The notes: a model not told the origin generated them from the sequence alone. Positions 9,190 through 63,110 are shown, counted from the first letter of the stretch. The stretch: 64,000 nucleotides of DNA from Chiloscyllium plagiosum (GCF_004010195.1 NC_057720.1:66938844-67002843), one strand, 5' to 3'. A program made the numbers and translations.

Positions 9190-10000
9190 GGAGAAGATTT
9201 GTAGCTCAGGATGGATTAGGTTGTAAATTTGCTTACTGAACTGGTAGATTTGTTCTCAGACAGACATTTTGTCACCATGCCAGGTAACATCATCAGTGAG
9301 CCTCCAGTGAAGCCTTGCTGTTCTGTCCGGCTTGATATTTATCTGTTTCAGTTTGTTGTGGTAAGTGATATCATTTCTGGTTCTTCCTTGAGAGGTTGGT
9401 AAATGGGGTACAAATCTGTGTTGGAAATGTGTTGCTGGAAAAGCGCAGCAGGTCAGGCAGCATCCAGGGAACAGGAGAATCGACGTTTCGGGCATAAGCC
9501 CTTCTTCAGGAACCTGTGTGTTTGTTAATGGAGTTCAGAGTTGAATACCAGGCTTCTAGGAATTCCTGTGCATGTCTTTGTTTAGCCTGTCCCAGGATGG
9601 ATGTATTGTCCCATCGAACTGGTGTCCCTCTTAATCTGTGTGTATGGATACCAGTGGCTAGTTTTGGTGGCTAGTTGGCACTCATGTATCCTGATGGCTA
9701 ACTTCCTGCCCATTTGTCCAATGTAATGTTTGGTGCAGTCCTTGCAGGGTATTTTGTATATGATGTTTGTTCTCCTGGTTGTTGGTATGGGGTCCTCTAA
9801 ATTCATCAGCTGCTGTCTCAGTGTGTTGGCAGGTTTGTAGTGTACCATGATACCTAGGTTCTAGATTAGAGTGGTGCTGGAAAAGCACAGCAGTTCAGGC
9901 AGCATCCGAGGTGCAGGAAAATCGACGTTTCAGGCAAAAGCCCTTCATCATGATACCTAGGGGCTGGAGTAGTCTGGTCTTCATTTCAGAGATGTCTTTG
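9190..10000 (-). mobile_element. Penelope-like element 3' portion (GIY-YIG endonuclease), left arm of an inverted pair
   Basis: Encodes NIIYKIPCKDCTKHYIGQMGRKLAIRIHE. It is interrupted by two short inserts (about 9421-9513 and 9859-9948). Confidence 0.85.
9478..9512 (-). ncRNA. Minimal type I hammerhead ribozyme motif (putative)
   Basis: TTC-CTGAAGA-A-GGGC(TTAT)GCCC-GAAA-CG-TC^GATT, on the sense strand of CDCP2 intron 5. Confidence 0.6.
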
Positions 10001-10005
10001 AAGAT

Positions 10006-10520
10006 CACATTGAAACAGCTCCTGATGAATTTAAAGGACCCATACCAACAACCAACAGAACGAACATTATATACCAAATACTCTGCAAGGACTGCACCAA
10101 ACACTACTTTGGACAAACGGGCAGGAAGCTAGCTACCAGGATACATGAGAACCAACTACCCACCAAAAGACATGACCAACTATCACTGGTATCCATACAC
10201 ACAGATGAAGAGGGACACCAGTTCAACTGGGACAATACATCCATGTTGAGACAGGCTAAACAAAGATACACGCGGGAGTTCCTCGAGGCCTGGCATTCAA
10301 ACTGGAAATCCATTAACAAACATATCGATTTGGACCCCATTTAGCAACCTCTCAGAAACAGAACAGGAAATGGTATCACCCACCACAACAGATCAAGACA
10401 GATAACTATCAAGCGGAACAGAATACCAAGGTTTCATTGCAGGCTCACTGATGATGTTACGTAGCATAGTGACAAAACATCTGAGAACAAATCTACCAGC
10501 TCAGTGAGCAAACTTACACC
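10006..10520 (+). mobile_element. Penelope-like element 3' portion, right arm of an inverted pair
   Basis: Reverse-complement similar to 9230-9830. Contains a GIY-YIG remnant (CKDCTKHYFGQTGRKL) and a hammerhead-like core at 10444-10485. Confidence 0.85.
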
Positions 10521-10629
10521 CCGAAGCTTCTTGAGTATTGTTGGAGCTTTTGGAACATTTAAAATTCATATACCTGGATGGTATATGAATAGGAATAGTT
10601 TGAGGGATAGGGCCTAATGTTGGCAAATG

Positions 10630-11445
10630 GGAGTAGGTCATACTGGGATATCTGGTCAGCATGAACTCACCCAGGCAAATGGGGAATATTCTATCATACT
10701 TTTGAATTGTGCTTTGTAGATGGTGGTCAGTCTTTGGGCAGTCAGGAGGTGAGTTATTCGCCACAGTATTCCTAGCCTCTGTTCTGCTCTTGAAGCCACT
10801 GTGATTATATAGCGAGCCCAGTTGAGTTTCTGGTCAATGGCAACCTCCAGGATATTGATAGTAAGGAACTCAGTGATGGTAACGCCATTGAGTGTCAAGG
10901 ATCGGTAATTAGATTGTATCTTATTGGAGATGATCATTCCCTGGCATTTGTGTGATGCACATTCATGAGGGGTATAGATAAGGTGATTAGTCAAGGTCTT
11001 TTTCTTAGGGTAAGGGAGTCCAAAACTAGAGGGCATTGGTTTAAGGTGAGAGGGGAAATATTTAAAAAAGGACCTGAGGTGTAACCTTTACATGCAGAGG
11101 TCTGTGTGTGTATGGAACAAGCTGCAGAGGAACTGGTAGAAGTGGGTACAATTACAACATTTAAAAAGCATCTGAATTGGTATATGAAAAGGGAAGGTTT
11201 AAAGAGATATGGGTCAAATGCTGGCAAATGGGATGTCAGATTGGGATGTCTGGTTGGCATAAACAAGTTGGACTGAAGGATCTGTTCCATGTTGTATGAT
11301 TCTATGACGCTAAATGTCACTTGACACTTGTTAGTCCAAGCTTGCATACTGTCTAGATCTGGTTGCATTTAAACATGAACTGCTTCAGTATCTGAGGAGT
11401 TGCAAATAGTGCTGTACATTGTGCAATCATTCAGCAAACATCCAA
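10630..11445 (-). mobile_element. Old L2/CR1-like LINE RT C-terminal fragment, interrupted by a plus-strand CR1 3' fragment (about 10960-11310)
   Basis: Encodes LDSMQAW...ILEVAIDQKLNW...IYKAQFKSMIEY. Related copies lie at about 43230-43900 (+) and 54640-55440 (-). Confidence 0.6.
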
Positions 11446-11449
11446 GTAC

Positions 11450-11628
11450 CTGGGTCTTTGTTCCACATGCATCAAATCGTGAGATTATCTTGTATGCAGA
11501 GCCAAAAGCCTGGGCAGTACAGCCCTGGTTTCCTAGATAAATGTTGCTTCGACTGAGTAAAGGAACAGCCTGTACAGCAATCTGAATCTGGAAATCTGTT
11601 CTCGTGCAGCTGATGTTCATGGGAACGA
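11450..11628 (-). CDS. CDCP2: CDCP2 coding exon 5 (ZP-N-like first half)
   Basis: tttcag acceptor and CAG|gtact donor; 179 bp, phase 1->0: VPMNISCTRTDFQIQI...FDACGTKTQ. Confidence 0.85.
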
Positions 11629-12108
11629 CTGAAACAAATAAAATAAGTAAAGCTTAGTTAAACCTCAATAGTTCTGGCTGCATTGATTACACAGAATAAT
11701 TCACAGAATGCTGTACAGCACCTGTTGACTCAGTGGCAAATACACTTTCCAGTGTGATACTCGGTTTGTGAGTCAGTTGGCAAATTGCCTGCTCCGAATT
11801 ATCAATATTGATGATGCTGGTAGTTAGATTGGAACAGCAGATAATGGAGCCTCTATATAATGGGTTTTCATATGTCACAATGGAGTGTCAGTCTTAAATT
11901 TTGTACTCGAGTCTCAGGAGTGGAACTTCTACCCAAAGTCTTCTAACTTAGAGTTGATATGCTATTCTATCAGAAGTGTTAGTCCATAACTGAAACTACC
12001 ATTCCCACCAATGATGCTACCTTTGTCCATTAGATATCTCATTGGATAAATTACCACCCAGATTCCACACATCCAATAACTCCTTGCCATGATGAGCCCT
12101 CTACTTAC

Positions 12109-15072: not shown

Positions 15073-17066
15073 CTGAAAAAAAGCTTGATTTGAAACTTCA
15101 GTTTAAATTGAAAGGTTTGATGCCCTTGCTTTTCAAATTATTTAATAAATATATGTTTCCCTTATGTAAGTCATTTCCCACACATTTCGTCAAAATCTTA
15201 ATGCTGCTCCAATGCTCCCATTTTGCCATTTTCTGAGAGGTATACAACATCAAATTGATTTTCACTTCTACTCGCTATTGGGCGAAGGACTGACCAAAAA
15301 CAGGAGGAAGCATGCATGAAATTGTACCAACCTACAACTTGTGGATATATTCTAGCAAAGTAGCATGTTTGAGACAGCTAACTTCATCTGTTATTCAGAA
15401 TTTCATTCATTTTTATTGGACCCTCGCTACCCCATCAGATCCTTGGCTTCCTCCTATATTGACTCTCACTTACAACACCCAGTTAATGTATTGCTTTTTC
15501 GAAGAGTCCAATATTACTGATTCTAGTGTCAATCACACTGTAGTGTTTAAAGACTTTGACTGAAAAACACAAGATCTGTGTCTGTGTGGGAAGGTTATCA
15601 AGCAATAACAACTTGCATTTATGTATCAACAGTAATATTGTGAAATATCCGAAGGCCTTGAATATTAGTGATTATCCAACAGAATATGTCACTGAGCTGT
15701 GCAAGGAAATATCATGATAGTTGACCAAATGTTTGGTGAAAGAGGTGGGTTTTAAGTAACATTTCAGAGGAGAGGGACAAGCTACTTCTTGTTGAGACAA
15801 TTGAATGTGCAAGCACCAAAGAGTAGTAATTAAAATTGGGGATACTCAAGAGACTGTAATTGGAGAAGTTCAGAAATCTAAGCGGTTTTTGGGCTGGAGG
15901 ATATAATAGAAGTAAGAAGGAAGTGGCACGATTTGAAAACAAGAATTAAAATTTTTAAATTGAAGCATTGCTGAACTGGAAGCCAATATAGATCAATTAG
16001 CACATGAATATAGAGGATTTAGTGAGAGTTGAGATAAAGGCAGCAAAAATTTTGGATGAGCTAAAAATTACAGAGGATGCAAGATGGGAGACTGGCTAGG
16101 AGATCATTGGCATAATTGAGCTCGAAGGTAACACAGGCATGGATAAGAGTTTTAGAAACTGATAAACTAAGGCAGGATAGATAATACAATAAGTAATTAT
16201 TTGAACAAAACTATTACTCGTTCCAATTTGTTATTATTTTGTTTTTTACCTTAGGCTTTCTTTCAGGCAGTCTTTTCAACATTGGGATGTGTTAGAATTC
16301 TATTTTTTATGTGAGTAATTAATTTGAAATTATTCATTTTTAACTAAGACTCTAAATACATCAGCCTCAAAATATTCAAAGACTTGGTTTCCACTACCTT
16401 TACATGAAGAGAGTTCCAAAGACTCATGACCATCTATGAGAAATATATGTTGCCTAATTTCTGTTCTAATAGGGCAATCTCTTACTTTTAAGCAGTGTTA
16501 AGAAGAAACATCTCCTCCATATTTTTTCTGTCACCTCTTACTCTTCTTATCTCCAGCTGATGCAAGTCTAGTCTTCCTCACCTTTGTTCATAAGACAACT
16601 GATGGTATGCTCTGCAAGATTTATTTCTGCATCCTTCAGCTCAAAACAATTTCTGCTCACATTGACATTGCAAGTATAAGCTGACAAGTAGACCTTGATG
16701 AATGACAGGATTAACATCTCATTCATTAACCAAAGAGATTTAGGGATAAAGAAATAAACAGAAAAGGAATTGAGATAGAGAAGGAATTAAACAGGGTGAA
16801 TTCAATGCCAAATCAAGTTGAGAAAGAGAAATAAAGGACAGGATTTTTCAGATGGCAAAGTTTCCCACTCACCACCATGAGGAACATTCATTGGCTGGAG
16901 ATGGGCCTTTTGCTTGAGTATGGGCATCTGTCCCTCACTCAGGCTGAAGACCCACTTCAGAGTACTGTCAACCATCAGATTTATTCCATAACTCCAGAAG
17001 TGCCAGTGACAGCAGTGGCCAGGGCTGGGACTATGAGTTGTTCCTGGATTCTAAATCCAGGACTGA

Positions 17067-17210
17067 AAAATGTATTGCTGGAAAAGCGCAGCAGGTCAGG
17101 CAGCATCAAAGGAGCAGGAGAATCAATGTTTCGGGCAAAAGCCCTTCTTCGGGCATAAGCCATTTTTCAGCTCTGATCTCCAGCATCTGCAGTCCTCACT
17201 TTCTGCTTCT
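17067..17210. mobile_element. Short Penelope-terminus-derived element with internal inversion
   Basis: Matches the terminus at 62530-62660 as two oppositely oriented pieces. Same structure as 41070-41220. Confidence 0.65.
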
Positions 17211-18494: not shown

Positions 18495-19080
18495 TTAATA
18501 GTTCAAGACACAATGTAGCAGTTGGTGTGATAATGAGCCATTTAGGAAGGCTGCGGATTTCATCCCTTTTAAAGAAACAGGAATAGGCTGTTCAGCCTAT
18601 CAGCCACTTAAGCCATGGCTGATTGGACACGTAGCCACACTATCCCCATAACCATTTATGCCACGGGTAATCAGAAATCTATCAAAAATACATACTCAGT
18701 TAAATATTAAACATCCAACATACTCATTCTAAGCATCCACAGCCAGGGTACAGAACTTCAAAGATTCACACTTTTCTGCATAAGACAAATTCTCATCTCA
18801 AATTTAAATGGCATTCCCCCTCACTTTTAAATTGTGCCCCTTGGTTCCAATCTCCCTGACCAAGGGAACCATCTTTCCTGCATCTAAAATAAAACAAAGA
18901 ACTATGGATGATGGAGTTTTGAAACAAAAACAGAAATTGCTTGTGAAACTCAGATGGTCTGAATGGATTCATGGGGAGAAAATTGAGTTAACGTTTCAAG
19001 CAAGTCTAGTGATTTATCATCAATACTAAATTTTGCCAGCAATTTATTTTTGTTTCCTACATCTATTAGAGAATCTAATA

Positions 19081-22727: not shown

Positions 22728-23936
22728 TTTCACCACCTGTACTGCTCGTACTACCATTAAGGACTCCTTCAATTACTTCCATCATATTCACCCTTCCTTT
22801 CTCTCACTGCAGGAAGTACACACTGGGTCTAGAGGGTCAAAACTAGCTGGTGGTGGTGGGGGACCCAAGGTGGTGACAGACACAAGGCTCCTCAGATCAT
22901 CTGAGGAGAACATTTTCAAGCTGTCTGGAGAAGAATGCAACCATTCCCATCATAAAACTGTAAGTGGGTGGATTGGAGGAAAGTTGGGGGTCAGGATTTA
23001 GATTTTTAACACTTCAGCCTTACATTTGACCCAAACATATCTGTTTTGGGGGGTTAAAATTCTCTCCAGTATTCAGAGAATATAGAAGAGGCAGATTTAC
23101 CATGTTATCATTTGGAACGTGTTTTAATTTTGAAAGTCGGGTGAAATGACTGAGTTGGGAAATAGCATGAGGGAGAGAGCAGATAGAAAGGCATTATCAA
23201 AAATGTTGAGAGGCTGAAGGTAACCAAACTTTGACAAATTCAAACAAAAGTGTAAAGAAAATGTTAACTCTGTTTTCTCTTCACAGATGCCACCAAACAA
23301 GCTGAGTTTCTCCAGCAATTTCTGTTTTTGTGTATTTCAGATGTCCAGCATCTGAATTATTTAATTCAAGAAAAAGAAAAGCCAGAATGGCAATAATAGG
23401 GCTATGATTGTGTGAGAATGGGTTAGTTGCATTGAAAGCATACAATAGAACCTGGGGGTTGGGGGTGAGTAATGTAAGAAGGTATTCGTGTTCTAAAATA
23501 ATTAAACTCAGCACAGCCAACCCACTTTCCCCAACTCATTTTCACTCACTCATCCCCATTATAACTTATCTTCTTTTCTTCCTTACTATCTCAATCACTT
23601 GCTTTGTCTGACCATTTTTTGTCTCAATCTCGGGGATTCCTCTCTACCTATCCACTCATTCATTTTTCCCCCACTCCCTGTCATCAGCATACATACCACC
23701 TTTTCCTACCTGCTATCACTTCAGAAGAAGGGTCATTGGATTTGAAACATCAACTCTGTTTTCTCTCCACACATGCTGCCAGACCTGCTGAGTTTCTCCA
23801 ACAATTTGTTTTTTTGTGTTACTTTTTAAGTTACTTGAGGAGTGCACAAAGATGTGTTATCCACATTGTTTTCAGGATAGCAGTTGACATGGTATAGTCT
23901 AACATAATTGGTAAAGGGCAGGTTTATATGGTATAT

Positions 23937-27044: not shown

Positions 27045-28512
27045 ACTTACAGTGTGGAAACAGGCCCTTCAGCCCAACAAGTCCACACCGACCCGCCGAA
27101 GCGCACCCACCCAGACCCATTCCCCTACATTTACCGCTGCTAACAAACTCCATATAATGACAACTTTTATAATGCCAGCCCACAAATTTCCAGCTTTACT
27201 GAATTCAGTTCCACAGTGTGCCATGATAGGAATGATACTCATAACCTCAGAATTGCTAGGCCTGTAACATATCCATCACACTGTTAGTATCTAGTTCTGT
27301 TAATACCATTCTAAATATCCAGGAGCAAAAGGTTACAAATCCACAGGTGTTGGGAATTCATTAGTTAGCTTGTATTAAAATGTAAGTTACCATAGCGTAT
27401 TAAAATATATAAAAGAGGGCTTTTGTGGCACAGTGGTAATGTCCTACCTCTGAACCAAAAGGCCTGGGTTCATTTCACATGCTCCACAACCCTGTCATAT
27501 CATCTTTGAACAGGCTGAATCAAAAATATCTATTAAAATGTAAATTTCTAGGAGTACTAATATGTATAAAACTGGTGTTTTTTGGCACAATGGTAGTGGC
27601 ACCTTCTAGCTCAAAAGGTGCAATTCCTACATGTTCCAGAGGTGTGTTATTTAACGTCCAACCTGTTTTATTTAAATTCTAATTTATAATTACCTTAATT
27701 CGGTTCAATTTTGGTTTTGGCGTTTTTGCCATAAGAGGATTAGAAGTTATAATGGTCTTGGAGTACAATGGTAATGTCCCTACTTCTGGATCTGGGTTCA
27801 AGTCTCATGCATAATGGAGCTATGTCATAAAATATCCAAACATGTTGACTAAAACATATTCAAACATATCTAAAGAAAGGCCAGCTAGAAGGAGAGGGGA
27901 ATGTATTTGAAAGGGGTAGCAAGCTCTGTGTGAAAAAATAAAGATGCTTTTCCAAAGTATATTCGTCACTGAATGTGCTTCATAAATATGCCTGATAAGT
28001 TTAATGCACATCACTGGATCCAGCATAGATATAGGATATAGAAGTAAACAGTTTCCTTTTAATCCTGCTGTAGGTAAAATTGGTTATAAGCAGTTGTATA
28101 GTTCTTTCCTTTGTCTATGTAAGTCTACTGAAAATAGTTGATTTGCATACTTCTATCTATAATGTACAATGGGAATGCAGCCTAACAACTGTGGTAAGGA
28201 CAAATGAGATCATTGGCTGTGCTGCTTTTAATGAACATCCCTATTCTGGAAAGGCAAAATCTGCCATACTTTATCCCGTGATGGTATTCTGTTGCTGCCT
28301 AGATTGCAAGGTTGGTGTTCAAAGCAACAGATTTGCTGAATAACAGAACTAAAATGCCTGCCACTCCCAATTTGTGGGCTGGCATTATAAAAGTTGTCAT
28401 TATATGGAGTTTGTTAGCAGCGGTAAATGTAGGGGAATGGGTCTGGGTGGGTGCGCTTCGGCGGGTCGGTGTGGACTTGTTGGGCTGAAGGGCCTGTTTC
28501 CACACTGTAAGT
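27045..28512. repeat. Perfect 144-bp inverted repeat (27045-27188 / 28369-28512)
   Basis: Base-by-base comparison shows identity. Each arm is about 90 bp of SINE 3' end plus about 55 bp of non-SINE sequence. Confidence 0.9.
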
Positions 28513-38605: not shown

Positions 38606-41069
38606 CTTTCAATAAATCAGAAAGATTGAAATCAGTTAAATTATAATCTTTGGCTAATAAATGTATGTTCATTAATATTGGACACACTTTAAAATTCCAT
38701 TTGCGAGATGGGAAAATCTATTAAATCCAACAGTTTTTGAGCACATGGGCAGGATGTTCCATTCGGTAGAAGGATCAGATTTTTTTCCTTTTCTTTCCTT
38801 CACTGCTACTGCTCTGCCTCATTGTCAAGGCATCAAGATGTAGTTCAATGGACTGGTTATTGGTCATTTTGAATAATTGGTAACAAGTTCCTTCCAGTCA
38901 TTAAGGTTAATACAGCTGCATTGCAGTGTCTCTGAAATAATAAAGTTGGCCATTTTAAAGTTGAGAAAACAGGACCTGGTAGGGGATATGCTTTTTGGCC
39001 ACAGTGTCCAGTCCATTCAAGTTGATTTTGCAGGGGTATTACCCGAATACTTGTGAAGTTTCTTTTCAAGAAGTCACTAGCGATTGATTGTTTAGCGGTC
39101 TTTCTATTGATTACAGAGAACGCACTGTTGATGGATCTTTTCTTGTGCTGTTATTTATCACCGCTGTAGAGTCTTGCAGTGTAGGAGCGTGATCATGACA
39201 GCTGCTCAGTACACTAGTTGACTTGCAAGAAATCTTTTGTTCAAATACTTGCTGCCATTATTGTCGAAAGTTGAGATGGCACAGCTGGTTTGGTGGTGGA
39301 TCTTTTTATCAATTATGGCCTCATGATAGAGGTAATTGCCAAGGCATGGGATGTACTCAAAGTATATCTGTATGGCCCTATTCTGCTGCCCCTTCTCAAA
39401 AGGTTCACCTCCTTCTCCTTCCCCCATCTGAAGCCAAAGTTGGAACAACAGTTTCTTTTTCTTTCAGCACAATCTATTCCAGTGTGTCTCTCCTTCAACA
39501 TATGTGAGACGTAGAATAGGAGGATGACATAGTTGGATCTGACCCAGATCCATTGTGAGAATGTCCTTGTAAAGAAATAGAATCAGAGTTAACCAAACAG
39601 GAATAAAGTCACCAAGTCAAGGAGCATCCAAAGCAATTTTCATTTGTCTGCAGAATATAGAGCAGATCACCACCTTGACAGAGGCTTATACTCTCCAACA
39701 ACCCTTTGAGTGATGCTATTGAAGGTCTTTACCACCAATAATAGCAAAGCTAGGATGTGGTGCCAGAAATAGTGCAGTGCAAAAAGTCCTCAATGTCAGA
39801 ACAGGATAAGGAAGAATCAATGTCTCACTGGCTGTGAAAGTAGAAAAAGGCTGCAGCAGCAAGATGCAGCACAATCTTCACTTGCTCATGGCAGATGATA
39901 CCCAGCATCCTTCCTCTTTGCAGAATCTTCTCTGTTTGGCTACACATGTTTTGTCCAAATAATCATCGCTGTGGCATGGTTCTCATCTCCAAGTTGTATA
40001 CAGGCTCCTCATACTTCTTTGGTTTCTCCTCCTTCTCTGATTATTCAAAGTTCTGACTCAAAATATTTAGAATAATGTTGTTTTTAAGTGTAATAACTAT
40101 AAATATGTCTTCTGCTTGCTCTTCATTTAGCCTTTGCATGGAATCAGACCTCAGCCATAGTAACTTCAAGTATTCCCTGCTAGCCCCATTTTTTACTCAA
40201 TTCATTTGCAGCAAACCACCCTTCCTTTCCTCAATCTCATGCGTCCTATAAACATTCAAGGTCAGATACTTGGTCATCCCTTTAACCTCAGCATCTCTCA
40301 TGGCCCCTCCTTTTATGCCCATATCTCAATTACTGATAAAATGATCCCTGACCCCCATTCTCCCCCAATTCCACTACTTTTACCATTTCTACATGATAGA
40401 AACTCTCCTGTAGTTGATCATCCACTGGAACTGGGGCTGTCATCAAGAGCACTACTATAACGAAAACAGTCCAGTAAAATGATCTGAAACTCAGCATACA
40501 ATCTAGATTAAATTAAATTAGCTCCAAACATCTCACCACTGGAACAGCTACCATTATAATCAGATTAAAATAAACTCTTCCTTCTATCGTCTTGAGGATC
40601 AGTTATAGTTTGATGATATTAATAGGTATCAATCAACAGCGAGAAAAACAGAAAGTCTACATTTGAAAAAGGCAGCCAATAACTTATAAGAGAGTCACAA
40701 ACCATAAATTTCATTGCAACAAACAAACTAGTTGGTAAAATGTTGTGAAATTTTAATATACCTAAAACTATATGCTTGCAAGAGTTAAAATCAGGTGCAG
40801 CAGCTCTGGTTATAGCTGCCTTCTATTCCAAACTGATAACTCTGGTAACTGTAGCATTCTTTAAAGGAATTTTCAAATCCAAGGCTTGAGTGCAAAAATC
40901 AAAGCCGACATTCTAGTGCCAAGACCATATTACACTATTGGAGATGTTCTCCTTTGCATGAGAGACTAAATTAAGATCCTGTTTAGATGACATAAAAGAT
41001 CCCATTGCATTATTTTGAAAAATAGAAAAATTATTGACAGTATACTGGCTAATAATTATATCCTAGTCG

Positions 41070-41220
41070 AAAAGTGTGGTGCTAGAAAAACACAGCTGGT
41101 CAGGCAGCATCCAAGGAGCAGGAGAGTCGATGTTTCGAGCATAAGCTCTTCATCAGCTTTTTCCAGCACCACACTTTTCAACTCTGATCTCCAGCATCAG
41201 CGGTCCTCACTCTCTCCTAA
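41070..41220. mobile_element. Short Penelope-terminus-derived element with internal inversion and hammerhead core
   Basis: AAAAGTGTGGTGCT...AGCACCACACTTTT inverted; core at 41125-41156 on the minus strand. Confidence 0.65.
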
Positions 41221-46234: not shown

Positions 46235-47965
46235 CTAAAACAGTAAATGCATGGAGGAAGGTTTCAACAGCAGGTGAACGCGGATAGACACAGAGTAAGA
46301 TTGTATTATGAAGGTACAACAGGGGGTCAAGGACATTTGGCCTTGGATCTTCAGGTGGCCATCCTCCAAGGTGGACTTCGGGATACTCAACAAGGTGGAA
46401 TCGCTGACCAGAGGCTGATAGCCAACTTCAATACCCATGAGGATGGCCTCAACTGGGATCTTGGGCTCATGTCACACTACAGGTGATCCCACTACACTAT
46501 ACACTCTCACACAATCACACTCACGCAGGCAGTCTCTCTCACACACGCGCTCTCAGACACACACACCCTCTCTCACAGGCATATACTCCTATCACACTTG
46601 CATTGTCTGAGCTGAGATGACACCTTCTTTGATAAAACCTTAAGTTATGTGTCTTGAAAGAAGGTCGTGCCTCACAAACCTTATTGAATTCTTTGAGAAA
46701 GTGACTAAGGAGGTGGACGAGGGGAAAGCAGTAGATGTGGTGTATATGGATTTTAGTAAGGCGTTTGATAAGGTTCCCCATGGTAGACTACTGCAAAAAA
46801 TACGGAGGTATGGCATTGAGGGTGAGTTGGAGGTTTGGATTAGGGGTTGGCTGGCCGGAAGNNNNNNNNNNNNNNNNNNNNNNNNNNNNNNNNNNNNNNN
46901 NNNNNNNNNNNNNNNNNNNNNNNNNNNNNNNNNNNNNNNNNNNNNNNNNNNNNNNNNNNNNNNNNNNNNNNNNNNNNNNNNNNNNNNNNNNNNNNNNNNN
47001 NNNNNNNNNNNNNNNNNNNNNNNNNNNNNNNNNNNNNNNNNNNNNNNNNNNNNNNNNNNNNNNNNNNNNNNNNNNNNNNNNNNNNNNNNNNNNNNNNNNN
47101 NNNNNNNNNNNNNNNNNNNNNNNNNNNNNNNNNNNNNNNNNNNNNNNNNNNNNNNNNNNNNNNNNNNNNNNNNNNNNNNNNNNNNNNNNNNNNNNNNNNN
47201 NNNNNNNNNNNNNNNNNNNNNNNNNNNNNNNNNNNNNNNNNNNNNNNNNNNNNNNNNNNNNNNNNNNNNNNNNNNNNNNNNNNNNNNNNNNNNNNNNNNN
47301 NNNNNNNNNNNNNNNNNNNNNNNNNNNNNNNNNNNNNNNNNNNNNNNNNNNNNNNNNNNNNNNNNNNNNNNNNNNNNNNNNNNNNNNNNNNNNNNNNNNN
47401 NNNNNNNNNNNNNNNNNNNNNNNNNNCTTTTTCCACTTATGGAGTCAGCTATTACAAGGGGGCATAGCTTTAAATTAAGGGGGGGTAGGTATAGGACAGA
47501 TGTTAGGGGTAGGTTCTTTACTCAGCGAGTCGTGAGTTCATGGAATGCCCTGCCAGTAGCAGTAGTGGACTCTCCCTCATTATGGGCATTTAAGCGGGCA
47601 TTGGATAGGCATATGGAGGATAGTGGGCTAGTGTAGGTTAGGTGGGCTTGGATTGGTGCAACATCGAGGGCCGACTGGCCTGTACTGCGCTGTATTCTTC
47701 TATGTTCTATGTTCTGGGATTTGGCAAATCAAATGAATCAAAACCTGCAACCCATTCTAAGTGATTAAGATTTAACAGCAATCAAGGTTTGTTCAATACA
47801 TCACATCAGTTGCATCACACTTTGATATTTTACTATAAATTCTGTGTCCTATGATCCTGCCCCACTAGCTACCTGATGAAGGAGTTTCTGAAAGTTTCTA
47901 CTTCCAAATAAACCTGTTGAGTGATTTTTAACTTTATCCACCCCAGTCCAACACTGGCACCTTTG
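46235..47965 (+). mobile_element. Penelope-derived repeat (46235-46647 and 47715-47965) split by a CR1 insertion (about 46650-47714) that contains an assembly gap
   Basis: The left part encodes a GIY-YIG C-terminal-like peptide (QRLIANFNTHEDGLNWDLG). The CR1 has RSCLTNLIEFFE/YMDFSKAFDKV and a (TTCTATG) tail. The right part matches 2385-2612. Confidence 0.75.
46862..47426. other. Assembly gap (565 N)
   Basis: Run of N. Confidence 1.
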
Positions 47966-48699
47966 CATCAGTCTAATGGGATTGATAGTACATCTTGAGG
48001 TCAAATATGACACCAAGCCTTCAACCAATTTGGTTCAGTAGCAGATAGATGCCATATAGAGTCAGTGGTTAGGGTAAATCAGCATTTTAGAGTACAGAAA
48101 TAAAAAAAACTGGATCAGTAAAAGTGAATCTTCACTGGTTCACGAGTGTTATTTAGTGAACAAAACTGGTGTTCATTACCGTGTTTTAACAATGTGTGAC
48201 ATCTGTTCAAATTAATGTGTCGACTCTCAAACTATCGAGCAAGCTTGTCATCATCACCTTCTGAAAGCCAATTGGAGATGGGCAATAAATGTCAGCAACA
48301 CCAATGACCCAACAATAAAAAAAAGAAATTGCTGGCAAAGCTCAGCAGGTCTGACAGCATCTGTGGGAAGAAAGCAGGTTTATTTGGAAATACTAGCTTT
48401 CAGGGCGCTGCTCCTTCATCAGGTTACCACCACCTCGGTGTTTGCAAACTGGCAGCCGTGTTTGAAATCAGACAGAACAAGTGATCATTCTTCGAAAGGT
48501 TCGTTGGCCTGTGGCACGCATGGGATGTCCCAAGAACATGAAGGACTCTTGACAAAAGCGCATTCCTTCAATGTCTCCTTTGCGAAAATTACTCAGCAAA
48601 ACATCTGAGCCTCAAAGGACCGAAACTGGTACTTTAATGATACAAAGCCTACGGAGAGAAAAAGTAAATCGTTATTTTAAAGTAAGGCAGAGCTCACTA

Positions 48700-50500: not shown

Positions 50501-51859
50501 TTCTGTGACTGTGCCCCTGCATTTTAGATTCCCTGACCAGCAAAAGCAATCACTCAGCATTTACCCTGTCATGGCCTTTCAGAATTGTGTAATTTTGAAT
50601 GAGATCCCCCCTCATACTTTTGAACTTGAGAATATAGACCTAATTTGTTCAGGCTGTCTCTCCAAACCAACAGATTCATTTAGTGAACATTTTCAGTACT
50701 TCCTCCAGCATGTAATTTCTTGTCCCTCCTTAACCAGTTCCTCAATGGGACAGCTTTTACTGCTGTGATTAGTTCAAGTTTCACTGCCCTGAGTGGCCAT
50801 TTAGTACAGTTTGTGAAGCAAAGATTGGAGTCCAGCTTACCCCACTGAGTCGCAGATAGTTCCCCTCCTCTTTGATCAAGAGGCCCTCTTTATGATGCAA
50901 TCTATGAACTTTGAGGGGAAAAAGGGACCAATTGAGAGATTGAATATGTTGAAGTTGTCTATTTCTGATTATGCAAAATACGGTGAATATTGGTTCAGAA
51001 TTAGAGGCTTCAAATAGAATTGAATGTAAGACTAACCAATGACATTCTTCTCAGTACCCTATTCCAAGCTCTAAAGTTTGTCATAGCTTGCAGTCCCTCC
51101 ATCTATGTACAGGGCAAACAAAATGATGCAAATTGGTGAGACATTATCACTTAGACTGTTTGTCTCCACAACACGGCTCACATCCAGTGATGCCAACCCC
51201 CATTTCATAAAGCGTGAGACCAACCCTAGGTCAAGAAACTTCGTATGAATTCATGAGAAGCTCATGTTTTCAACTTGAATCAACATGGATTCACAGATGT
51301 TTTTCAAACGTCAATCTCAAATTAGTCAGGACTGTATACAAAAACAAAATTTAAAGATTCTCAAAATGATTTTTAAAAAAACCTTTCCTGTTATTTTTGG
51401 TAAGATCATGGCTGGACTTAAGAGAAGAGGTTCACATGCCTCGTTTTGCAGCAAAAAACACTGAATGTAGAACATATGTTGGTGGACCTGGATAGTGAGC
51501 GGGGAATATTCATCTGCATAAGATTGCATTTGTGTATTTCAGTCTATTAGATTAATATAGCTCTGAAATTACTTTGGCTGCAAATATTAATTTTTAATTT
51601 TTTTAATAATTAGCATGCACATGCTCATTATATTTGTTATTTTTAAATGTACTTGTGGATAACTTGTTAGCTTATGAGTATTTATCTGCATTAATTATTG
51701 CTGCATTTATGTATCTCTATCACTTGTAAATGCAACTGTATGAAACTTTGTACCCTAAATCATCTGTAGTTTAATATTTTTAAAAATTTATCCACAGTTC
51801 TATTTCCCATATTTTTTTTCCCAAAATGTTTGATTCATTTCTGTTTTATACATTGCGAC

Positions 51860-53140
51860 TTTGGGGAAGATTTGTAGCTTAGGTTGTGGATCAGGTCATA
51901 GGTTTGGTCGCTGAGCTGGCAGATTTGTTCTCTAATGTTTCATCACTACGCTCAGTAATATCATCAGTGAGCCTCCGATGGAGCGCTGGTGTTCTGTCCT
52001 GCTTGCTATTTATTTGTCTTCATTCGTTGTGGTGGGTAATATCACTTCCAATTCTGTTTCTGAGAGGTTGGTAAATGGGGTCCAACTTGATATGTTTGTT
52101 AATGGAGTTCCAGTTTGAATGCCAGACCTCTAGGAATTCTTGTGCGTGTCTTTGTTTAACCTGTCCCAGGATGGATGTATTGTCCCTGTCGGACTTGTGT
52201 CCCTCTTTGCCTATGTGTGTGGATACTAGTGATAGTCATGTCTTTTGGTGACTAGTTGCTGCTCATGTGTCCTGGTTGCTAGTTTCCTGCCCATTTGTCC
52301 AATGGAATGTTTGTTGCAGTCCTTGCAGGGTATTATGTATATAATGTTCGTTCTGCTGGTTGGTCGTACAGAGTCCTTTAAATTCATCAGGAGCTGTTTC
52401 AGAAAGGTGGTAGGTTTGTGGGTGATAATGATGTCTTGGGACCAGAGTAGTCTGGTCATCATCTCTGAGATGTCTTTACTGTATGGCAGGGTGGATAGAG
52501 TCTCTGGGCATGTTGTGCCTTCTTGTTTAGGTCTGTTGTGTGGGAATTGGGAATAGTGCTTATTGGCTACCCATTGTTCCTGAATATGTTGTATAGGTGT
52601 TTTTCCTTGGCTTCTCATAATTCCTGGATGATGCAGTGTCTTGTGGCTCGTTTAAATAATGTCCTGCTGCAGCTCCTTGTGTGTGTATTGGGATGATCCC
52701 TCCTGTATTTGAATATCTGGTCAGTGCATGTAGCTTTCCTGTAAATGCTGGTCTGCACCTCACTATTGGCTTTTCATTCTGCTCTGATGTCCAGGAAGGG
52801 GAGTTTGTTGTTGTTCTATTCCTCTTTGGTGAACATTTTACCGGTAAGGATGTTGTTCATGTGTTTGTGGATTTCTTTTAATTTGTTACGTTTCGTGATG
52901 ACAAAGGCGTCATCCACATAGTGGACCCAAAGCTTGGGCTGGATCCTGGGAAGAGCTTTTCGTTCTAACTTCTGTGTTACTGCTGCTGCTGCTGCTGCTA
53001 AGAGTCCTGATATTGGTGATCCATAGGCATCCTGTTGATTTGTTTGTAGATATTGCTATTGAAGGTGAAGTGGGTTGTGAGGCACAGATCTACTAGTTTG
53101 AGGATGCTGTTCTTGCTGGTGGAGTTGGTGCTGTCAGGTG
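51860..53140 (-). mobile_element. Penelope-like element (RT C-terminus, GIY-YIG, hammerhead-bearing terminus), degenerate
   Basis: Minus strand reads PMGSPISG, YVDDAFV, TLPYSKDISE and NIIYIIPCKDCNKHSIGQMGRKL; hammerhead-like core at 51930-51971. Confidence 0.85.
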
Positions 53141-53229
53141 AGGTTATTAAAGTTTCCACAATAAATAATAGGACAGGGTATTGAAAGAGTCAGGGATATA
53201 ATTTCAGACACAGCAGATAAGTGGTCATC

Positions 53230-56146: not shown

Positions 56147-56223
56147 AATAGTATTGCATTAAAAACCCTTCACTTTCTGCAGTTTCCCTGCAGAAAGTGA
56201 AGGGTTTTTAATGTAATACTATT
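56147..56223. repeat. Near-perfect palindrome/hairpin: 36-bp arms, 5-nt loop
   Basis: AATAGTATTGCATTAAAAACCCTTCACTTTCTGCAG-TTTCC-CTGCAGAAAGTGAAGGGTTTTTAATGTAATACTATT, with one G:T pair. Confidence 0.9.
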
Positions 56224-58458: not shown

Positions 58459-58574
58459 CCCTGTATTGCTGCAGAACCTCTTACACTTATGCAGGATCTT
58501 GCAGCCCCGATTTCCTGCACTTGGAAACAGGACACTGGCTGAAAATTACCGTGTGACTGCAATGTGGGAGAGAG
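58459..58574 (+). CDS. MRPL37: MRPL37 coding exon 3
   Basis: 116 bp, phase 2->1: CPVLLQNLLHLCRILQPRFPALGNRTLAENYRVTAMWER. Confidence 0.9.
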
Positions 58575-60315
58575 GTTTGCCAATGTGACTTCTGTTTAAG
58601 TAGTAATGTGTAAAAATGTCTTTGTCCTTTCTCTTCAATGGTAAAAGCCATGAATACTCTATACTAGGTCGCACAAATGTAACACTCATTGGCTTAATTT
58701 CTAATAAAATAATTGTTTTGCCCGTTTGTGGAAACTTCCAACAATATATAATCATAGAATCTTAAGCACAGAGTGTTTGGTTCTTTGGCCGAGGCTTCAT
58801 ACAAGAAGCAATTTGCACACACCAACTTCCGCAAACACAAAGTTTATTGAAGCTTGTAGAAGTTAGGTGACCGCTCTGACACTCTTCACTGGTTGTGCGA
58901 AGTCAAGTCAAAATGAGGCCTCTTCCTCTTCCCCATATCCTACCACTGTACTTGGGGTAGTGTGTGGTTGAGGTCATCCTCGGAGATAACGTAAATGTCA
59001 ATGCCCTAATCCTGGGAATAATTAGACTCAGTGATTCCCCAAGATAATGCAAGTATGTTATGCCCTAGCTTTGGGGGATGGCTCTGAAAGCATTTCTGAA
59101 TGGAAGGGACTGAATGAGAGTTTAATTTGATGATAGCAGGAGAGTAGTAGTAAGTGGCTGGCTAAATAAAGTGAGTCATCCACACCCACTTCCAAAATGT
59201 TCAGCTACTGGAGAAAGACAGAACAATTTAATGCAATGTTAAAAGATTAATGTCCAGAGAGATGGTACAATTTAATCTTTTAAAATTACACAAGGAGGCT
59301 ATATGCTTGTCATAGGTCTTTGAAACATCTCTCAATTTAGTCATAAAAACTTCTGACTTAGACATTTTAAAGTACATCTCCAGTTGCCTTTCAGAGTGGT
59401 AAGAATATCTGCTTTTATCCATTCTTTCAGGTTGTTTGTTCCATGTCGTAATGTGTGGATAAAGATTCCTTTTCATTTTCCCTCTCGTCTACTGTAACAT
59501 GCAAGGGAAATTTGTTGGAAACACATCTTTGATGTAACGTTTCCTTTGGGACCTGGCGATCTCCTTCGGATAATCCGCTTTTCGGATAATCGAGTTTCCT
59601 CTGTTGTTTTGAGCATCAACTGTTGCACAGTTGGCGGCACCTTTGCCTCTGGATTGCAAACATGTGGATTCAGCTTCACTCCAGTTTAGTACTAGGGAAG
59701 AACTGCAGTTGCAAAGGTGCTACCTTAATTGAGGCTTCATCTGCATGCTTGAGTGGATGTAAATGATCCTCATTTGCAGTTAGTGTCTTTTAAAAAGTCT
59801 GTCTGAAACCAGCCTATGAATTATCACATTAATGTGACATAAGCCTGTCTTTATAACGCAACAGTAATTGTAATTATTAGTGATGTTCCAAAATGTAAAT
59901 AAATGCCAGTACATTTGGTTGATCTTCTAATAAGATTAATGTTTTCATGCTGAATTTACATTTTGCAGTTCAACCAAAAATAAGCAATTTAACTCAAAGA
60001 AAAAGTGGGTTTGAACTTTACATTCGTCTGTAGCGCTTGTGGTCACTTAATAAAAAAAAAAAATCAAGCAACTGAAAAAAAATTACTTTTTGCTCAGGTT
60101 GAAGTTGTCAGCAAATGGTTAACTGGAAATGATCAAAACTGCATCCATCTTGTTTCAGATGTCTATGTATTCTGTTCATTTTGCATATTATTTTTGTACT
60201 CCTCTTTCAAATGCACATGATTGAGAGGGGATAGTATTTAACTACAGACCTTCTGATAAGCAAATGGAACATAGTGGTTAGCACATGGATTGATGACTGT
60301 TAAATTTCTTTGCAG

Positions 60316-60501
60316 AATCTGACCTTTTCCGGATTAGTGGTTTAAATGGAATCCTCCTGAGTAGTAAGCAACCTTTACCAACAGGAGCAGGAAAAGAAGA
60401 GATATTAAGCACTGAAAGTTATGTCCTTCCAACCTTCTATCCCATCTCTCCTAACATTGACTTGCAACAAACTAATATCTATGAAATACATAATGATACA
60501 G
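60316..60501 (+). CDS. MRPL37: MRPL37 coding exon 4
   Basis: 186 bp: SDLFRISGLNG..VLPTFYPISPNIDLQQTNIY..NDTG. Confidence 0.92.
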
Positions 60502-60817
60502 GTAAGTTTTTGATACATTAGCTATTATGCAGCTTAACACCACTCATTTTTGGAATTGGCAAAACACTGAGCACCCTTTTTTTTTGTTGATTGATTGAAG
60601 GGACTAAATGGAAGGAATGAAATATCTCATGGTGCTGAAAAAGATATGGTTAATCAAATCAATTAGTTCAATTGAATGAAATATTGTTTGTGACATGAAT
60701 TTTTATATCAAGCATTCCAAAGTCAATGTGGTTTACATATAAGAGTTTTTTGAGGAAGATTAGGACTTCTACATTACTCTTACCCATTTACAATTTTTAT
60801 TAATTGTGTTGGTACAG

Positions 60818-60972
60818 GCTTCCGTGATGGGTACCCTTTTCCTCACGCGCACACACTGTATTTTACAGAGTGTTCTGCTCATACAGCTAGGTTCAAACCT
60901 GAGCCACTGAGGGCGAAGATGATCATGTTCACATTTGCAAATGCTTTTGCAAGGGCCAAGCTGCTATATGGT
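60818..60972 (+). CDS. MRPL37: MRPL37 coding exon 5
   Basis: 155 bp: FRDGYPFPHAHTLYF..LRAKMIMFTFANAFARAKLLYG|gtaagt. Confidence 0.92.
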
Positions 60973-61979
60973 GTAAGTATTTACTTCATTTGGTAACTAA
61001 TGAAGTAGCAATTCCATTTAACTTCAACTCAGTGTCATTGGTATTAGACAATATTGTAGAACAAGCACTTTGCAAATTTGTTTCTCTAACTCTTTCCAAA
61101 GAAATGAGAGTTGCAAAAGCTATAGAGACACCAAGAACCCCTATATTGACAAGCACTCAGTGTTAACACTAAAGAGGGACGAAATTCTGAAATGTGTTCA
61201 GAACAATTGTCTCAGTCTGCTTAATGGATTTATTTTTTTGCATCTACTAACAACTGGCTGTAGGAACAGGCTGTGATTGGATGAAACCCTTGGCCTTGGA
61301 TAAAAAGGAAAACAGTGATTCAGAAAAGTATTCCCAGTGGGACAAAAATAGAATTGGATTTTTCCAAAAGTACATGCATAATTTATCCTAACATAGTTCT
61401 AATGCACTGAGCAGATCAAGCATTGTATATGTATATATATTTATATTCAGTTGCTAATGGTGTAATATTTTAAAGGGAACTTTGAAGCAAATGCCTGCCT
61501 TCTCTTTTCACATAAATGAATATAGCTGAAAGTCCAGAATCCTGTTTATTGCACTGATTGTTTGAGGTAAATGTGGACAACACCAGCAGGTGGGGAGTTA
61601 AGGTTGGCAAATGTGAAAAGTGAGAGTTAGTCCTGACTCAGAAATAAAATTCATTATAAGCAGGAAACAAATAACCAGTCTGCAACAATTTTTTACTGAA
61701 TTCTGTAAAATCTGGAAAATCAGTCATTGCAATGTCTGTACATTCCTTTACAAATTGGTGACTGCTCAATAGCCTGATCTACTTTTTTTGTAATGTTTTA
61801 TGACAATTAATCAATTCCCAGTAACTTGAAACTGGAGACTTTCCTCCATCATCTTTAACCATAGATTATAATTGCTGCTGTGTTACTGAAGCTTGGACTG
61901 GCATGATACCACAAGGTGCAACTGCAAGTGCACACACTCCAATTAGATAAACATCTTGATTTATTGTTTTATTTCACAG

Positions 61980-62186
61980 GAAGAGCCAAAGGTGCTGGAT
62001 AATCCTATCACAGTACAATGCATTGCCACAAATGGAAGGATGTTCCAATTCCTGGTATTGCAGTTAAATACCACAGATCTGCAATCATCAAATGATGGTG
62101 TAAAAAACCTAATTTGGCTAGATCAAGATCAGCTACTATATGACTATGCAAAGTGCCTCCCGGTAATCAGAAAGAAAATGATACAG
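61980..62186 (+). CDS. MRPL37: MRPL37 coding exon 6 (no stop; the gene presumably continues beyond the window)
   Basis: 207 bp: EEPKVLDNPITVQCIATNGRMFQFLVLQLNTTDL..GVKNLIWLDQDQLLY. Confidence 0.93.
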
Positions 62187-62529
62187 GTGAGTACAGTTTG
62201 AACTTTGGCAAATTGTTCCTTAAAAGGCAGTGACATATTTTGTATCAGTAGTTCCCTGCCTGCATGTTGATGTCTGCATCTACAGAGAGTCTTCCTGTTG
62301 GGCTGCTCAGTTAATGTTGACAAATGAGTTCCTGTGTCACACCCTATTCCACATATTACATCATTGACTGAGTTTATTTCACTACAATGACTGTGATCAA
62401 CTGAGACCAGAAACAAACTAATTGTACATGACACTAGGTAACTTAGCTCAATTTTATTGGTCCAATAAATGTGGACTCTAAGTAAGGCTCGAAGTAAGCT
62501 TTTTTTGTTGCTAGCATAGTATTACCCAG

Positions 62530-63110
62530 TAGGAGAAAGTGAGGTCTGCAGATGCTGGAGATCAAAGTTGAAACTTTATTGCTGGAACAGCACAGCAGGT
62601 CAGGCAGCATCCAGGGAACAGGAGATTTGACGTTTCGGGCACAGGCCCTTCTTCAGGAATGAGCAGAGAGTGTTCAGCAGGAGAAGATAAAAGGTAGGGA
62701 GGAGGGACTTGGAGGAGGGGCGTTGGAAATGTGATAGGTGGAAAGAGGTCAAGGTGAGGGTGATAGGTCGGAGTAGGGTGGAGGCGGAGGGGTCAGGAAG
62801 AAGACTGCAGGTCAGGAAGGCGGTGCCGGGCTGGAGGGATTCGGCTGAGACAAGGTGGGGGGAGGGGGGATGAAGAAACTGGTGAGGTCCAAGTTCATCC
62901 CCTGTGGTTGGAGTGTTCCCAGTCGGAAGATAAGACGCTCCTCCTCCGACTGTCGGGTTGTTGTGGTTTGGCGGTGGATGAGTCCAATGACCTGCATATC
63001 CTCGGTGGAGTGGGAGGGGGAGTTGAAATGCTGTGCTACAGGTTGGTTGGGTTAGTTCGTCCGGGTGGCCCAGAGGTGCTCTCTGAATCGCTCCGCAAGT
63101 AGGCGGCCAT
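62530..63110 (-). mobile_element. Penelope-like element 3' end (GIY-YIG C-terminus plus hammerhead-bearing terminus)
   Basis: Encodes EEERLIFRLGTLQPQGMNLD, followed by a pyrimidine-rich spacer and a hammerhead core at 62625-62660. ATTACCCAGTAGG is repeated at both ends (TSD-like). Confidence 0.8.
62625..62660 (-). ncRNA. Minimal type I hammerhead ribozyme motif (putative)
   Basis: ATTC-CTGAAGA-A-GGGC(CTGT)GCCC-GAAA-CG-TC^AAAT. Confidence 0.6.

What the first reader, a model, noticed from the sequence alone, without database searches (positions are those of the whole stretch)
9255..62660. Three families of ultra-minimal hammerhead-ribozyme-like motifs dispersed through the locus (~11 copies)
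Seen in the sequence: a recurring core CTGANGA-N-[stem II]-GAAA-NN-TH. Family A (minus strand) has stem II GGGC/GCCC at 9478-9512, 17121-17152 and 62625-62660, GGGC/GCCT at 9920-9950, and a compensatory GAGC/GCTC at 41125-41156. Family B has stem I CTCA/TGAG at 9255-9300 (-), 10444-10485 (+) and 51930-51971 (-); stem II is GTTACC/GGTGAC at 9255 and ATTACT/AGTGAT at 51930. Family C occurs at 2497-2524 (+), 47872-47895 (+) and 48391-48424 (-) with GAAA-GC-TA. In the best-preserved copies helix III is only the palindrome ACGT or AGCT. Established: Penelope-like elements carry minimal type I hammerheads thought to act as dimers. Inference: these A-NN-U versions cannot close helix III alone and would be obligate dimers. 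Many copies show CpG decay in the core, so most are probably inactive.
Basis: partly seen in the sequence, partly recalled or inferred. Interest (0 to 1): 0.75.

Follow-up and report, generated by a model that had tools for sequence, protein, structure and literature searches.

The report
Shark Penelope retrotransposons' minimal hammerhead relics
These are real but mostly decayed copies of a stripped-down hammerhead RNA motif at the ends of Penelope-like jumping genes in what is likely a shark, a pairing already described in other animals; most short copies start at the motif's first bases rather than at its cut site, and in one RNA sample its catalytic adenosines are likely edited by the host.

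Summary
All 11 motifs are present at the stated places. A CpG-tolerant minimal-hammerhead descriptor finds 7, against 0.01 per shuffle. Family A lies 3' of a Neptune-like GIY-YIG remnant and family B 3' of a Poseidon-like RT/endonuclease. C has no ORF here. This is the loopless, palindromic, dimer-type hammerhead of Penelope-like elements (Cervera and de la Pena 2014): a known kind.

Corrections: B9255 and B10444 are two arms of one insertion; GAAA-GC-TA fits 1 of 3 C copies; a fourth family was missed; only A9478 keeps core, palindrome, stem II and the first stem I pairs.

In DNA of two species, no non-CpG core or stem II position varies by 3% or more (0 of 17, against 12 of 28 loop/flank positions).

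Side results: 4 of 5 A insertions start at the motif's 5' edge; read depth is flat across the cut site; one RNA run shows strand-specific A>G at A13-A15.1 (9-17%; DNA under 0.4%), likely ADAR editing. This scan already noted shark Penelope hammerheads, 5'-edge starts and fossil edits on other DNA, including this genome.

The parts
62534..63108 (-). Family A insertion, 5'-truncated inside the GIY-YIG endonuclease of a Neptune-like element: endonuclease C-terminus (about 62875-63108), pyrimidine-rich 3' UTR, hammerhead (C3 62656, G12 62636, C17 62629; G1.1 decayed to A), downstream segment and tail
   Evidence: tblastn P0005 58%; best relatives 78% and 68%, named Chiloscyllium punctatum; 13-bp target duplication at 62521 and 63109; family sequence diverges from the window at 63108
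9422..9513 (-). Family A short insertion inside the B element. Best-preserved motif (C3 9509): full core, ACGT palindrome, 4-bp stem II, weak stem I. Starts 4 nt before C3 with a G where the long copy has A
   Evidence: 6-bp duplication exactly at both ends
9859..9948 (-). Family A short insertion inside the B element, truncated within the core (position 3 is A, from the target duplication)
   Evidence: 13-bp duplication at 9846 and 9949
17063..17206 (-). Family A insertion: inverted tail arm (about 17165-17206) joined to a direct arm that starts at the hammerhead's 5' edge; U4C and CpG decay
   Evidence: 14-bp duplication
41059..41216 (-). Family A insertion, GAGC/GCTC stem II subfamily: inverted tail arm joined to a direct arm starting at C3 (41156); palindrome decayed
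   Evidence: 10-bp duplication; subfamily seen in 36 contigs of organism B
9177..10523 (.). One inverted (fold-back) Poseidon-like family B insertion. Left arm (-) carries motif 9255-9300, right arm (+) carries motif 10444-10485, each downstream of a GIY-YIG remnant; arms 81-83% alike; both motifs G12A
   Evidence: 10-bp duplication at 9167 and 10524
51853..53150 (-). 5'-truncated Poseidon-like family B element: broken RT (YVDD motif) and GIY-YIG, then motif 51930-51971 (C3 51967), decayed at CpG sites; antisense in an MRPL37 intron
   Evidence: P0011 60-61% in three pieces, E 4e-117
2385..2608 (+). Family C copy; motif C3 2497, G12A, AGCT palindrome, H17 = U; no ORF or target duplication found
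47760..47962 (+). Family C copy; motif C3 47873 with a 4-nt deletion in stem II and broken palindrome
48318..48424 (-). Family C motif (C3 48422; full core, AGCT, damaged stem II) starting 2 nt before C3, fused to a family D tail
23700..23820 (+).
18906..19060 (-). Decayed family D insertion with an inverted tail arm joined near the motif's 5' edge
   Evidence: read from the sequence
23258..23353 (+). Family D remnant, starting near GAAA
8504..8606 (-). D/A-like remnant, 3' half of the motif and tail

Best explanation
The motifs are minimal type I hammerhead sequences at the 3' ends of Penelope-like retrotransposons (family A Neptune-like, family B Poseidon-like, family C likely a third family), scattered as truncated, mostly decayed insertions; in the master elements they likely cut RNA only slowly, as pairs or with help from the element's protein, and the copies here likely do nothing as ribozymes. 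Shown: position behind GIY-YIG/RT remnants, 6-14-bp target duplications, tails and inverted arms, CpG decay, and family-level invariance of the core. Inferred: the four bases A15.1-N-N-U16.1 cannot close a loop, so two motifs would swap strands and share a 4-bp palindromic helix III. A lone motif is predicted to collapse into an inactive rod in which core bases pair with the cleavage triplet. The element's protein likely primes reverse transcription about 60-100 nt downstream of the motif, at two sites that bound the tail, on uncut RNA. Most products stop at the motif's 5' edge and are joined, often as a fold-back.
For:: RT/GIY-YIG remnants directly upstream of A62625 and of all three B motifs; the best-named relatives are carpet-shark proteins. 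A relatives P0005/P0006 have the C-X4-C-X2-C linker that PMC8557442 gives for Neptune/Nematis; B relatives P0011/P0014 lack it. P0011 reads D-E-T-S-E across the motif where B10444 would read D-K-T-S-E, so G12 is intact in a relative; target duplications of 10-14 bp on 5 insertions and 6 bp on one; in DNA of two species 0 of 17 non-CpG core/stem II positions vary by 3% or more, against 12 of 28 loop II, N7 and flank positions (Fisher p 0.0013; core alone 0 of 10, p 0.016). The palindrome is ACGT in A and AGCT in C, a double change that preserves self-complementarity; monomers fold as rods; homodimer hammerheads are less stable than alternative folds; read depth is flat across the cut site (799, 805, 816) and falls from 589 to 173 over 62654-62665.
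Against: No cleavage was tested. Family C has no ORF, tail arm or target duplication in the window, so its Penelope origin rests on motif architecture alone. Stem I of family A is weak: U at 1.3 in 53% (X1) and 96% (X12) of summed depth leaves a U-U mismatch. The conservation test uses one window copy as reference with an 80% cut-off and contigs that drop rare variants, so it favours conserved letters; the position classes were chosen after seeing the table. Part of the 5' depth step is subfamily divergence (a coherent loose end at 62663 in 45, 44 and 70 records). Clade names rest on a linker motif, not on a tree. Pfam matches on the window's own remnants are weak (GIY-YIG E 0.038) or absent.
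Confidence: 0.9

Rival explanations
1. The motif is kept mainly as a signal, not a cutter: its 5' edge is the start of the element's RNA, so short copies are run-off ('strong-stop'-like) cDNAs from the internal priming site to the RNA's first base. This refines the best explanation rather than replacing it.
For: 4 of 5 A insertions, C48391 and probably D18924 start within about 4 nt of C3. Depth drops 2.5x, 6.4x and 3.1x across that edge in X1, X12 and X21; neighbouring steps in X21 are 1.3-1.5x. There is no step at the cut site. The edge is the exit, not the entry, of the hairpin for a reverse transcriptase. It falls on the A of an initiator-like TCATTC (consensus recalled), and A9478 begins with a G at that position. 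PMC11167929 reports internal priming, insertion from uncut RNA and no RNA-seq ends at the cut site.
Against: No RNA 5' ends were seen (table 6 empty; the library is poly(A) single-cell and poorly suited). Template switching through stem I complementarity gives the same junctions: a 62625/62660 strand-switch joint is seen in 2 contigs and 4 reads. All three B motifs have long upstream sequence. The initiator motif is degenerate, and one G is one observation.
Confidence: 0.45
2. Some copies act as working ribozymes in host RNA, for example A9920 and A9478 forming a double hammerhead in the last intron of the CUB-domain (likely CDCP2) pre-mRNA, on whose sense strand both lie 440 nt apart.
For: Same strand as the host exons; both keep ACGT; A9478 has a full core.
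Against: Both sit inside a 1.35-kb fold-back. 457 of 680 left-arm bases pair with the right arm, B9255 is fully paired, and forcing the double hammerhead costs 313 kcal/mol in a pseudoknot-free model. A9920 lacks C3, and stem I is 2-3 bp.
Confidence: 0.03
3. The repeats are non-LTR retrozymes, i.e. tandem non-autonomous hammerhead repeats that make circular RNAs.
For: Short non-coding copies with type I motifs; retrozymes are reported in one chondrichthyan and derive from pLTRs (10.64898/2026.07.22.740005).
Against: No head-to-tail arrays of these motifs in the self-comparison; copies are single or fold-back insertions, several attached to ORF remnants.
Confidence: 0.05
4. The motifs are chance matches within repeats.
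For: Rfam finds no hammerhead; copies of one repeat are not independent observations.
Against: Three families with different stems share the same core spacing, the extra base after A9 and a palindromic helix III; shuffles give 0.005-0.01 hits; the core is invariant across subfamilies.
Confidence: 0.01

Closest known systems
Minimal hammerheads (min-HHR) of metazoan Penelope-like elements, Cervera and de la Pena 2014 (PMC4209133; read: abstract, results, discussion, start of methods; supplement file 2 searched, file 1 not searchable)
   Same: Type I layout, no loop 3, palindromic 15.2-16.2, extra base between 9 and 10.1, G10.1-C11.1, short helix I, several consensus families per genome, mostly solitary copies, nearby copies on opposite strands, reported in fish Poseidon and Neptune elements.
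   Different: Sharks are not named in the parts read (0 hits for shark, Callorhinchus, Leucoraja or skate in supplement file 2). Stem II of family A is only 4 bp and its stem I usually has a U-U mismatch. Clustering of 5' ends and editing are not described in the parts read.
Short-stem-III hammerhead variants of Penelope-like retrotransposons, Lunse et al. RNA Biol 14:1499 (not read; title and a summary passage seen in review PMC6765202)
   Same: Type I, very short palindromic stem III, cleavage as dimers.
   Different: Could not check whether sharks or these exact families are in its data set.
Poseidon element of Anolis carolinensis (PAc), Frangieh et al. 2024 (PMC11167929; read: abstract, main text, first methods)
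   Same: Hammerhead in the pLTR, a 30-40-nt tail between two internal priming sites, insertion from uncut RNA, no RNA ends at the cut site.
   Different: PAc's hammerhead was shown to be protein-assisted; untested here. PAc's ORF starts in stem II, whereas the ATG in family A's core meets a stop after 16 codons.
EN+ Penelope-like element insertion units, Craig et al. 2021 (PMC8557442; passages read)
   Same: 5' truncation, inverted 5'-truncated copy, tail at one end only, variable target duplication; Neptune/Nematis linker motif in family A relatives.
   Different: Here most A units shrink to about 90-160 bp holding only the hammerhead and tail; no full-length element lies in the window.
ADAR hyper-editing of repeats, Porath et al. 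2017 (PMC5625713; passages read)
   Same: Penelope is heavily edited in lizard; elephant shark has abundant repeat editing; palindromic repeats self-pair.
   Different: The passages read do not place edits on hammerhead catalytic residues or in shark Penelope elements.

Membership tests
min-HHR of metazoan PLEs | Core CUGANGA ... GAAA ... UH | tested here: met
   6 of 11 copies complete, 5 with one deviation, 3 of them at a CpG; 0 of 10 non-CpG core positions vary by 3% or more in family A DNA of two species
min-HHR of metazoan PLEs | One unpaired base between A9 and 10.1; G10.1-C11.1 | tested here: met
   Extra base in 11 of 11; G10.1 in 10 of 11; C11.1 in 7 of 11, T (CpG decay) in 4
min-HHR of metazoan PLEs | No loop 3; palindromic 15.2-16.2 | tested here: met
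   No loop in 11 of 11; ACGT x3 and AGCT x2 intact, 5 decayed CG, 1 GT
min-HHR of metazoan PLEs | Helix I of 4-5 bp | tested here: inconclusive
   4 bp in B10444; 3 bp in C2497; family A has 4 bp only in a minority, a U-U mismatch in 53-96% of DNA depth
min-HHR of metazoan PLEs | Lies in the terminal repeat of a PLE | tested here: met
   A62625 and all B motifs follow GIY-YIG/RT remnants; not shown for C and D
min-HHR of metazoan PLEs | Inactive as monomer, slow cleavage as dimer | not testable with these tools
   Folding only: rods favoured; hammerhead dimer -15.3 against best dimer -24.1 kcal/mol for A9478
EN+ Penelope-like element | RT followed by C-terminal GIY-YIG endonuclease with two cysteines inside the motif | tested here: met
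   B51930 element: YVDD RT then CxxC GIY-YIG, broken. Family A: endonuclease C-terminus only; its relatives P0005/P0006 carry RT and GIY-YIG matches, mostly below Pfam cut-offs
EN+ Penelope-like element | Variable target duplication, one-sided 30-40-nt tail, inverted 5'-truncated arm | tested here: met
   Duplications on 6 of 11 insertions examined; inverted arms at 17165, 41158 and in the B unit. None found for the three C copies or B51930; ambiguous for D18924
Neptune/Nematis clade (family A) | CX2-5CxxC linker before the endonuclease | tested here: inconclusive
   Present in relatives P0005 and P0006; the window copy is truncated downstream of it; no tree built
Penelope/Poseidon clade (family B) | No Zn-finger-like linker before the endonuclease | tested here: met
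   Absent in the window translation and in P0011 and P0014; no tree built
Non-LTR retrozyme | Head-to-tail tandem units, each with a type I hammerhead | tested here: not met
   No tandem copies in the window's self-BLAST; rest of the genome not available
Rfam hammerhead families | Match to a curated model | tested here: not met
   0 hammerhead rows among 8 matches at E<=10

The most novel reading that the evidence does not exclude
In sharks the Penelope hammerhead marks the very start of the element's RNA. Most of the very numerous short copies are abortive strong-stop cDNAs joined into fold-backs, and these act as the shark's Alu-like double-stranded RNA source, in which ADAR edits the catalytic adenosines A13-A15.1 and so switches the ribozyme off. 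If the same happens on master-element RNA, host editing would control ribozyme-dependent steps of Penelope transposition.
Probability: 0.2. Interest if true: 0.55.

Novelty: new member of a known kind. Interest (0 to 1): 0.25.

Why it matters
The core finding is ordinary: it extends a described ribozyme-retrotransposon pairing to carpet-shark-like genomes. Four paper searches bearing on this (open-access library only) listed no paper by title on shark Penelope hammerheads, but tandem retrozymes are reported for one chondrichthyan and Lunse et al. could not be read. Its use is as material: why Penelope elements keep a hammerhead is still open, and a family laid by 51,368 and 34,362 contig pieces in two species (not a copy number) records in its junctions where reverse transcription started and stopped. 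The junctions seen favour copying from uncut RNA. The RNA-level A>G signal on catalytic residues gives a testable link to ADAR.

Tried and rejected
No whole genome is held for this window, so there was no genome-wide consensus or R-scape test. A 19-nt tail motif found 0 viral contigs and 81 metagenome loci. None of the 81 resembled the window beyond the motif (4 had a 25-nt match), so they are chance hits and were dropped. Rfam gave nothing relevant. Pfam found nothing on the read-through RT and endonuclease remnants. No listed holder of the stretch is on record as RNA. Run X22 laid 0 reads and is no test. The table of molecule ends was empty in both lays; with a poly(A) single-cell library read to 2% this is no evidence on cleavage. 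Summed contig depth was not used as copy number. Rejected: a cis double hammerhead in the CUB-gene intron; a type III layout cutting at the CUC just before family A's edge (no room for a stem I hairpin); looser CTGANGA..GAAA matches such as 33448, 45954, 46072 and 56019 (fail the stem and palindrome filter); 4-5-bp duplications at the C copies and B51930 (chance level). The T>C row at 62660 (9 of 144 against 0 of 83) was not counted as editing, because it lies at the 5' edge where an added G is possible. Family C found no look-alike among earlier notes. Lunse et al. is not held; supplement file 1 of PMC4209133 and the bioRxiv supplements could not be seen and may list shark motifs.


Full report
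Setting. The window is vertebrate DNA of about 39% GC, rich in CR1-type repeats. It holds a minus-strand CUB-domain gene (Pfam CUB E 2e-29), a minus-strand exon with an oxidoreductase-like N-terminal domain (E 1e-12) and plus-strand MRPL37 exons (E 5e-21 to mL37). The names CDCP2 and CYB5RL for the first two rest on recalled synteny. The best-named relatives of the repeat proteins are from Chiloscyllium, Stegostoma, Hemiscyllium and Rhincodon, so the host is likely a carpet shark.

Observation. A strict minimal-hammerhead descriptor finds 2 copies and a CpG-tolerant one 7, against means of 0.005 and 0.01 in 200 dinucleotide shuffles. Six of 11 have every core letter and five keep the A-NN-U palindrome. 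Of 24 CpG sites inside the motifs, 14 read CA or TG and none reads anything else. Only A9478 has core, palindrome, stem II and the first stem I pairs together. A fourth family, D, was missed.

What carries the motifs. Family B follows a GIY-YIG endonuclease in all three cases. At 51853-53150 it ends a broken element with a YVDD reverse transcriptase (60-61% to P0011, E 4e-117), and its relatives lack the cysteine linker: Poseidon-like. B9255 and B10444 are the arms of one 1.35-kb fold-back with a 10-bp target duplication. Family A at 62625 follows the C-terminus of a different GIY-YIG (58% to P0005) whose relatives carry the C-X4-C-X2-C linker described for Neptune/Nematis (PMC8557442, passages). 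The other four A copies are 90-160-bp insertions with duplications of 6, 13, 14 and 10 bp. Two have an inverted arm that carries the tail, and two jumped into the B fold-back. C has no ORF or duplication in the window; its Penelope origin is inferred.

Conservation across the families. In one search, 51,368 contigs of the same organism (X1, possibly the source sample), 34,362 of a second organism (X12) and 3,260 raw RNA reads (X21) were laid; X22 laid none. In one search (81 bases, complete variant table), DNA variation of 3% or more fell on loop II, N7, position 1.3, CpG sites and flanks. It fell on 0 of 17 non-CpG core and stem II positions against 12 of 28 loop, N7 and flank positions (p 0.0013). 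G1.1 is restored in 87% of X1 depth and over 90% of X21 reads, but only 18% of X12 depth, a row I cannot explain except by alignment clipping. A GAGC/GCTC stem II subfamily appears in 36 X12 contigs. For B, a relative's protein reads D-E-T-S-E across the motif, which requires G12. The test is biased towards conservation by the reference and the 80% cut-off.

Mechanism. Shown: anatomy, decay and invariance of the core. Inferred: A15.1-N-N-U16.1 cannot form a hairpin, so helix III must be shared between two motifs; ACGT in A and AGCT in C both allow this. Monomers are predicted to fold as rods with core bases paired. For all 8 motifs tried, the double hammerhead is less stable than the best dimer, by 9 kcal/mol for A9478 and up to 34 for D (nearest-neighbour energies ignore the tertiary core). 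This fits the low activity of dimers in PMC4209133 and the protein-assisted cleavage in PMC11167929. A cis dimer in the CUB-gene intron is unlikely because the fold-back sequesters the region.

Where the short copies start. Four of 5 A insertions and C48391 begin within about 4 nt of C3, not after the cut site. Depth falls 2.5x, 6.4x and 3.1x across that edge and is flat across the cut site in X21 (799, 805, 816). Most RNA reads come from genomic copies inside host transcripts, so the step reflects DNA structure, and part of it is subfamily divergence. Two readings remain. One is run-off at the RNA's first base: an initiator-like TCATTC (consensus recalled) and one extra G at 9513; the cap reading of that G is taken from earlier scan notes. 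The other is template switching through stem I complementarity: a 62625/62660 strand-switch joint in 2 contigs and 4 reads, and 93 reads whose loose end at 62660 is the motif in inverted orientation. Both imply uncut templates, as PMC11167929 found in vitro.

Editing. In X21, pairs oriented as element-sense RNA (strand assigned by the tool's general rule for stranded libraries) show A>G at A15.1, A14 and A13 in 87 of 505, 86 of 496 and 46 of 494, against 7 of 287, 6 of 281 and 3 of 285 in the other orientation. DNA runs show at most 0.12% and 0.39%. Three downstream positions show the reciprocal pattern on the other strand (4.8 vs 10.3%, 4.0 vs 12.0%, 1.6 vs 6.9%), while 6 control sites show no strand bias. 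A13, with a 5' G, is the least changed, as ADAR preference (recalled) predicts; A7 is not listed although its context is favourable. This is one sample, reads are not independent (36-62 start places), and the DNA is from other individuals. Earlier scan notes report genomically fixed A>G copies of such elements, so a few expressed loci of that kind could mimic the signal. Penelope editing in lizard and repeat editing in elephant shark are published (PMC5625713, passages). A search on hammerhead, ADAR, inosine, self-cleavage and retrotransposon (15 of 19 papers listed, titles and abstract starts seen) showed none on edited Penelope hammerheads.

Comparison and verdict. The motif meets the testable sequence features of the min-HHR of metazoan Penelope-like elements except a clean helix I in family A; activity is untestable here. 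It is not a tandem retrozyme within the window. Papers seen: PMC4209133 (abstract to early methods, supplement file 2 searched), PMC11167929 (main text), 10.64898/2026.07.22.740005 (first half and passages), PMC8557442, PMC6765202, PMC5625713 and PMC2377424 (passages); Lunse et al. only as a citation. The scan's index holds 93 earlier findings with the same key words in at least 18 genomes, including other pieces of this genome; these are unchecked notes and not support. Verdict: new member of a known kind, interest 0.25.

Noticed in passing
62629-62660 family, run X21: RNA-only, strand-specific A>G at hammerhead A13, A14, A15.1 and the extra base after A9, with reciprocal changes on the antisense strand downstream; likely ADAR editing of these repeats.
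   Followed up: partly
9177-10523: A 1.35-kb fold-back insertion in the last intron of the CUB-domain gene is predicted to form several hundred base pairs of double-stranded RNA in the pre-mRNA; two younger family A elements inserted into it.
   Followed up: partly
17154-17166: A short duplicate of stem II with a TTAT loop precedes the direct arm, whose loop is TTTT; it may come from a second template of another subfamily.
   Followed up: no
48318-48424 (-): Chimera of a family C motif and a family D tail, just upstream of the first MRPL37 exon.
   Followed up: no
P0013, P0017, P0018, P0020, P0021: Several annotated shark proteins (MAP3K7, CUEDC2, NT5DC1, WBP2-like isoforms) contain family B endonuclease sequence: exonisation or annotation artefact.
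   Followed up: no
27045-27188 and 28369-28512: A 144-bp inverted pair, 100% identical, 1.2 kb apart, in a SINE-like repeat family; recent duplication or conversion.
   Followed up: no
56155-56215: Near-perfect short palindrome (hairpin) that gave weak miRNA-family scores far below Rfam cut-offs.
   Followed up: no
17-885 (+) and 1481-2026 (-): Remnants that look like L1/Tx1-type ORF2 C-terminus and ORF1 (recognised from memory; no significant Pfam hit for the two pieces scanned).
   Followed up: no
46862-47426: 565-base assembly gap inside a CR1-type element.
   Followed up: no
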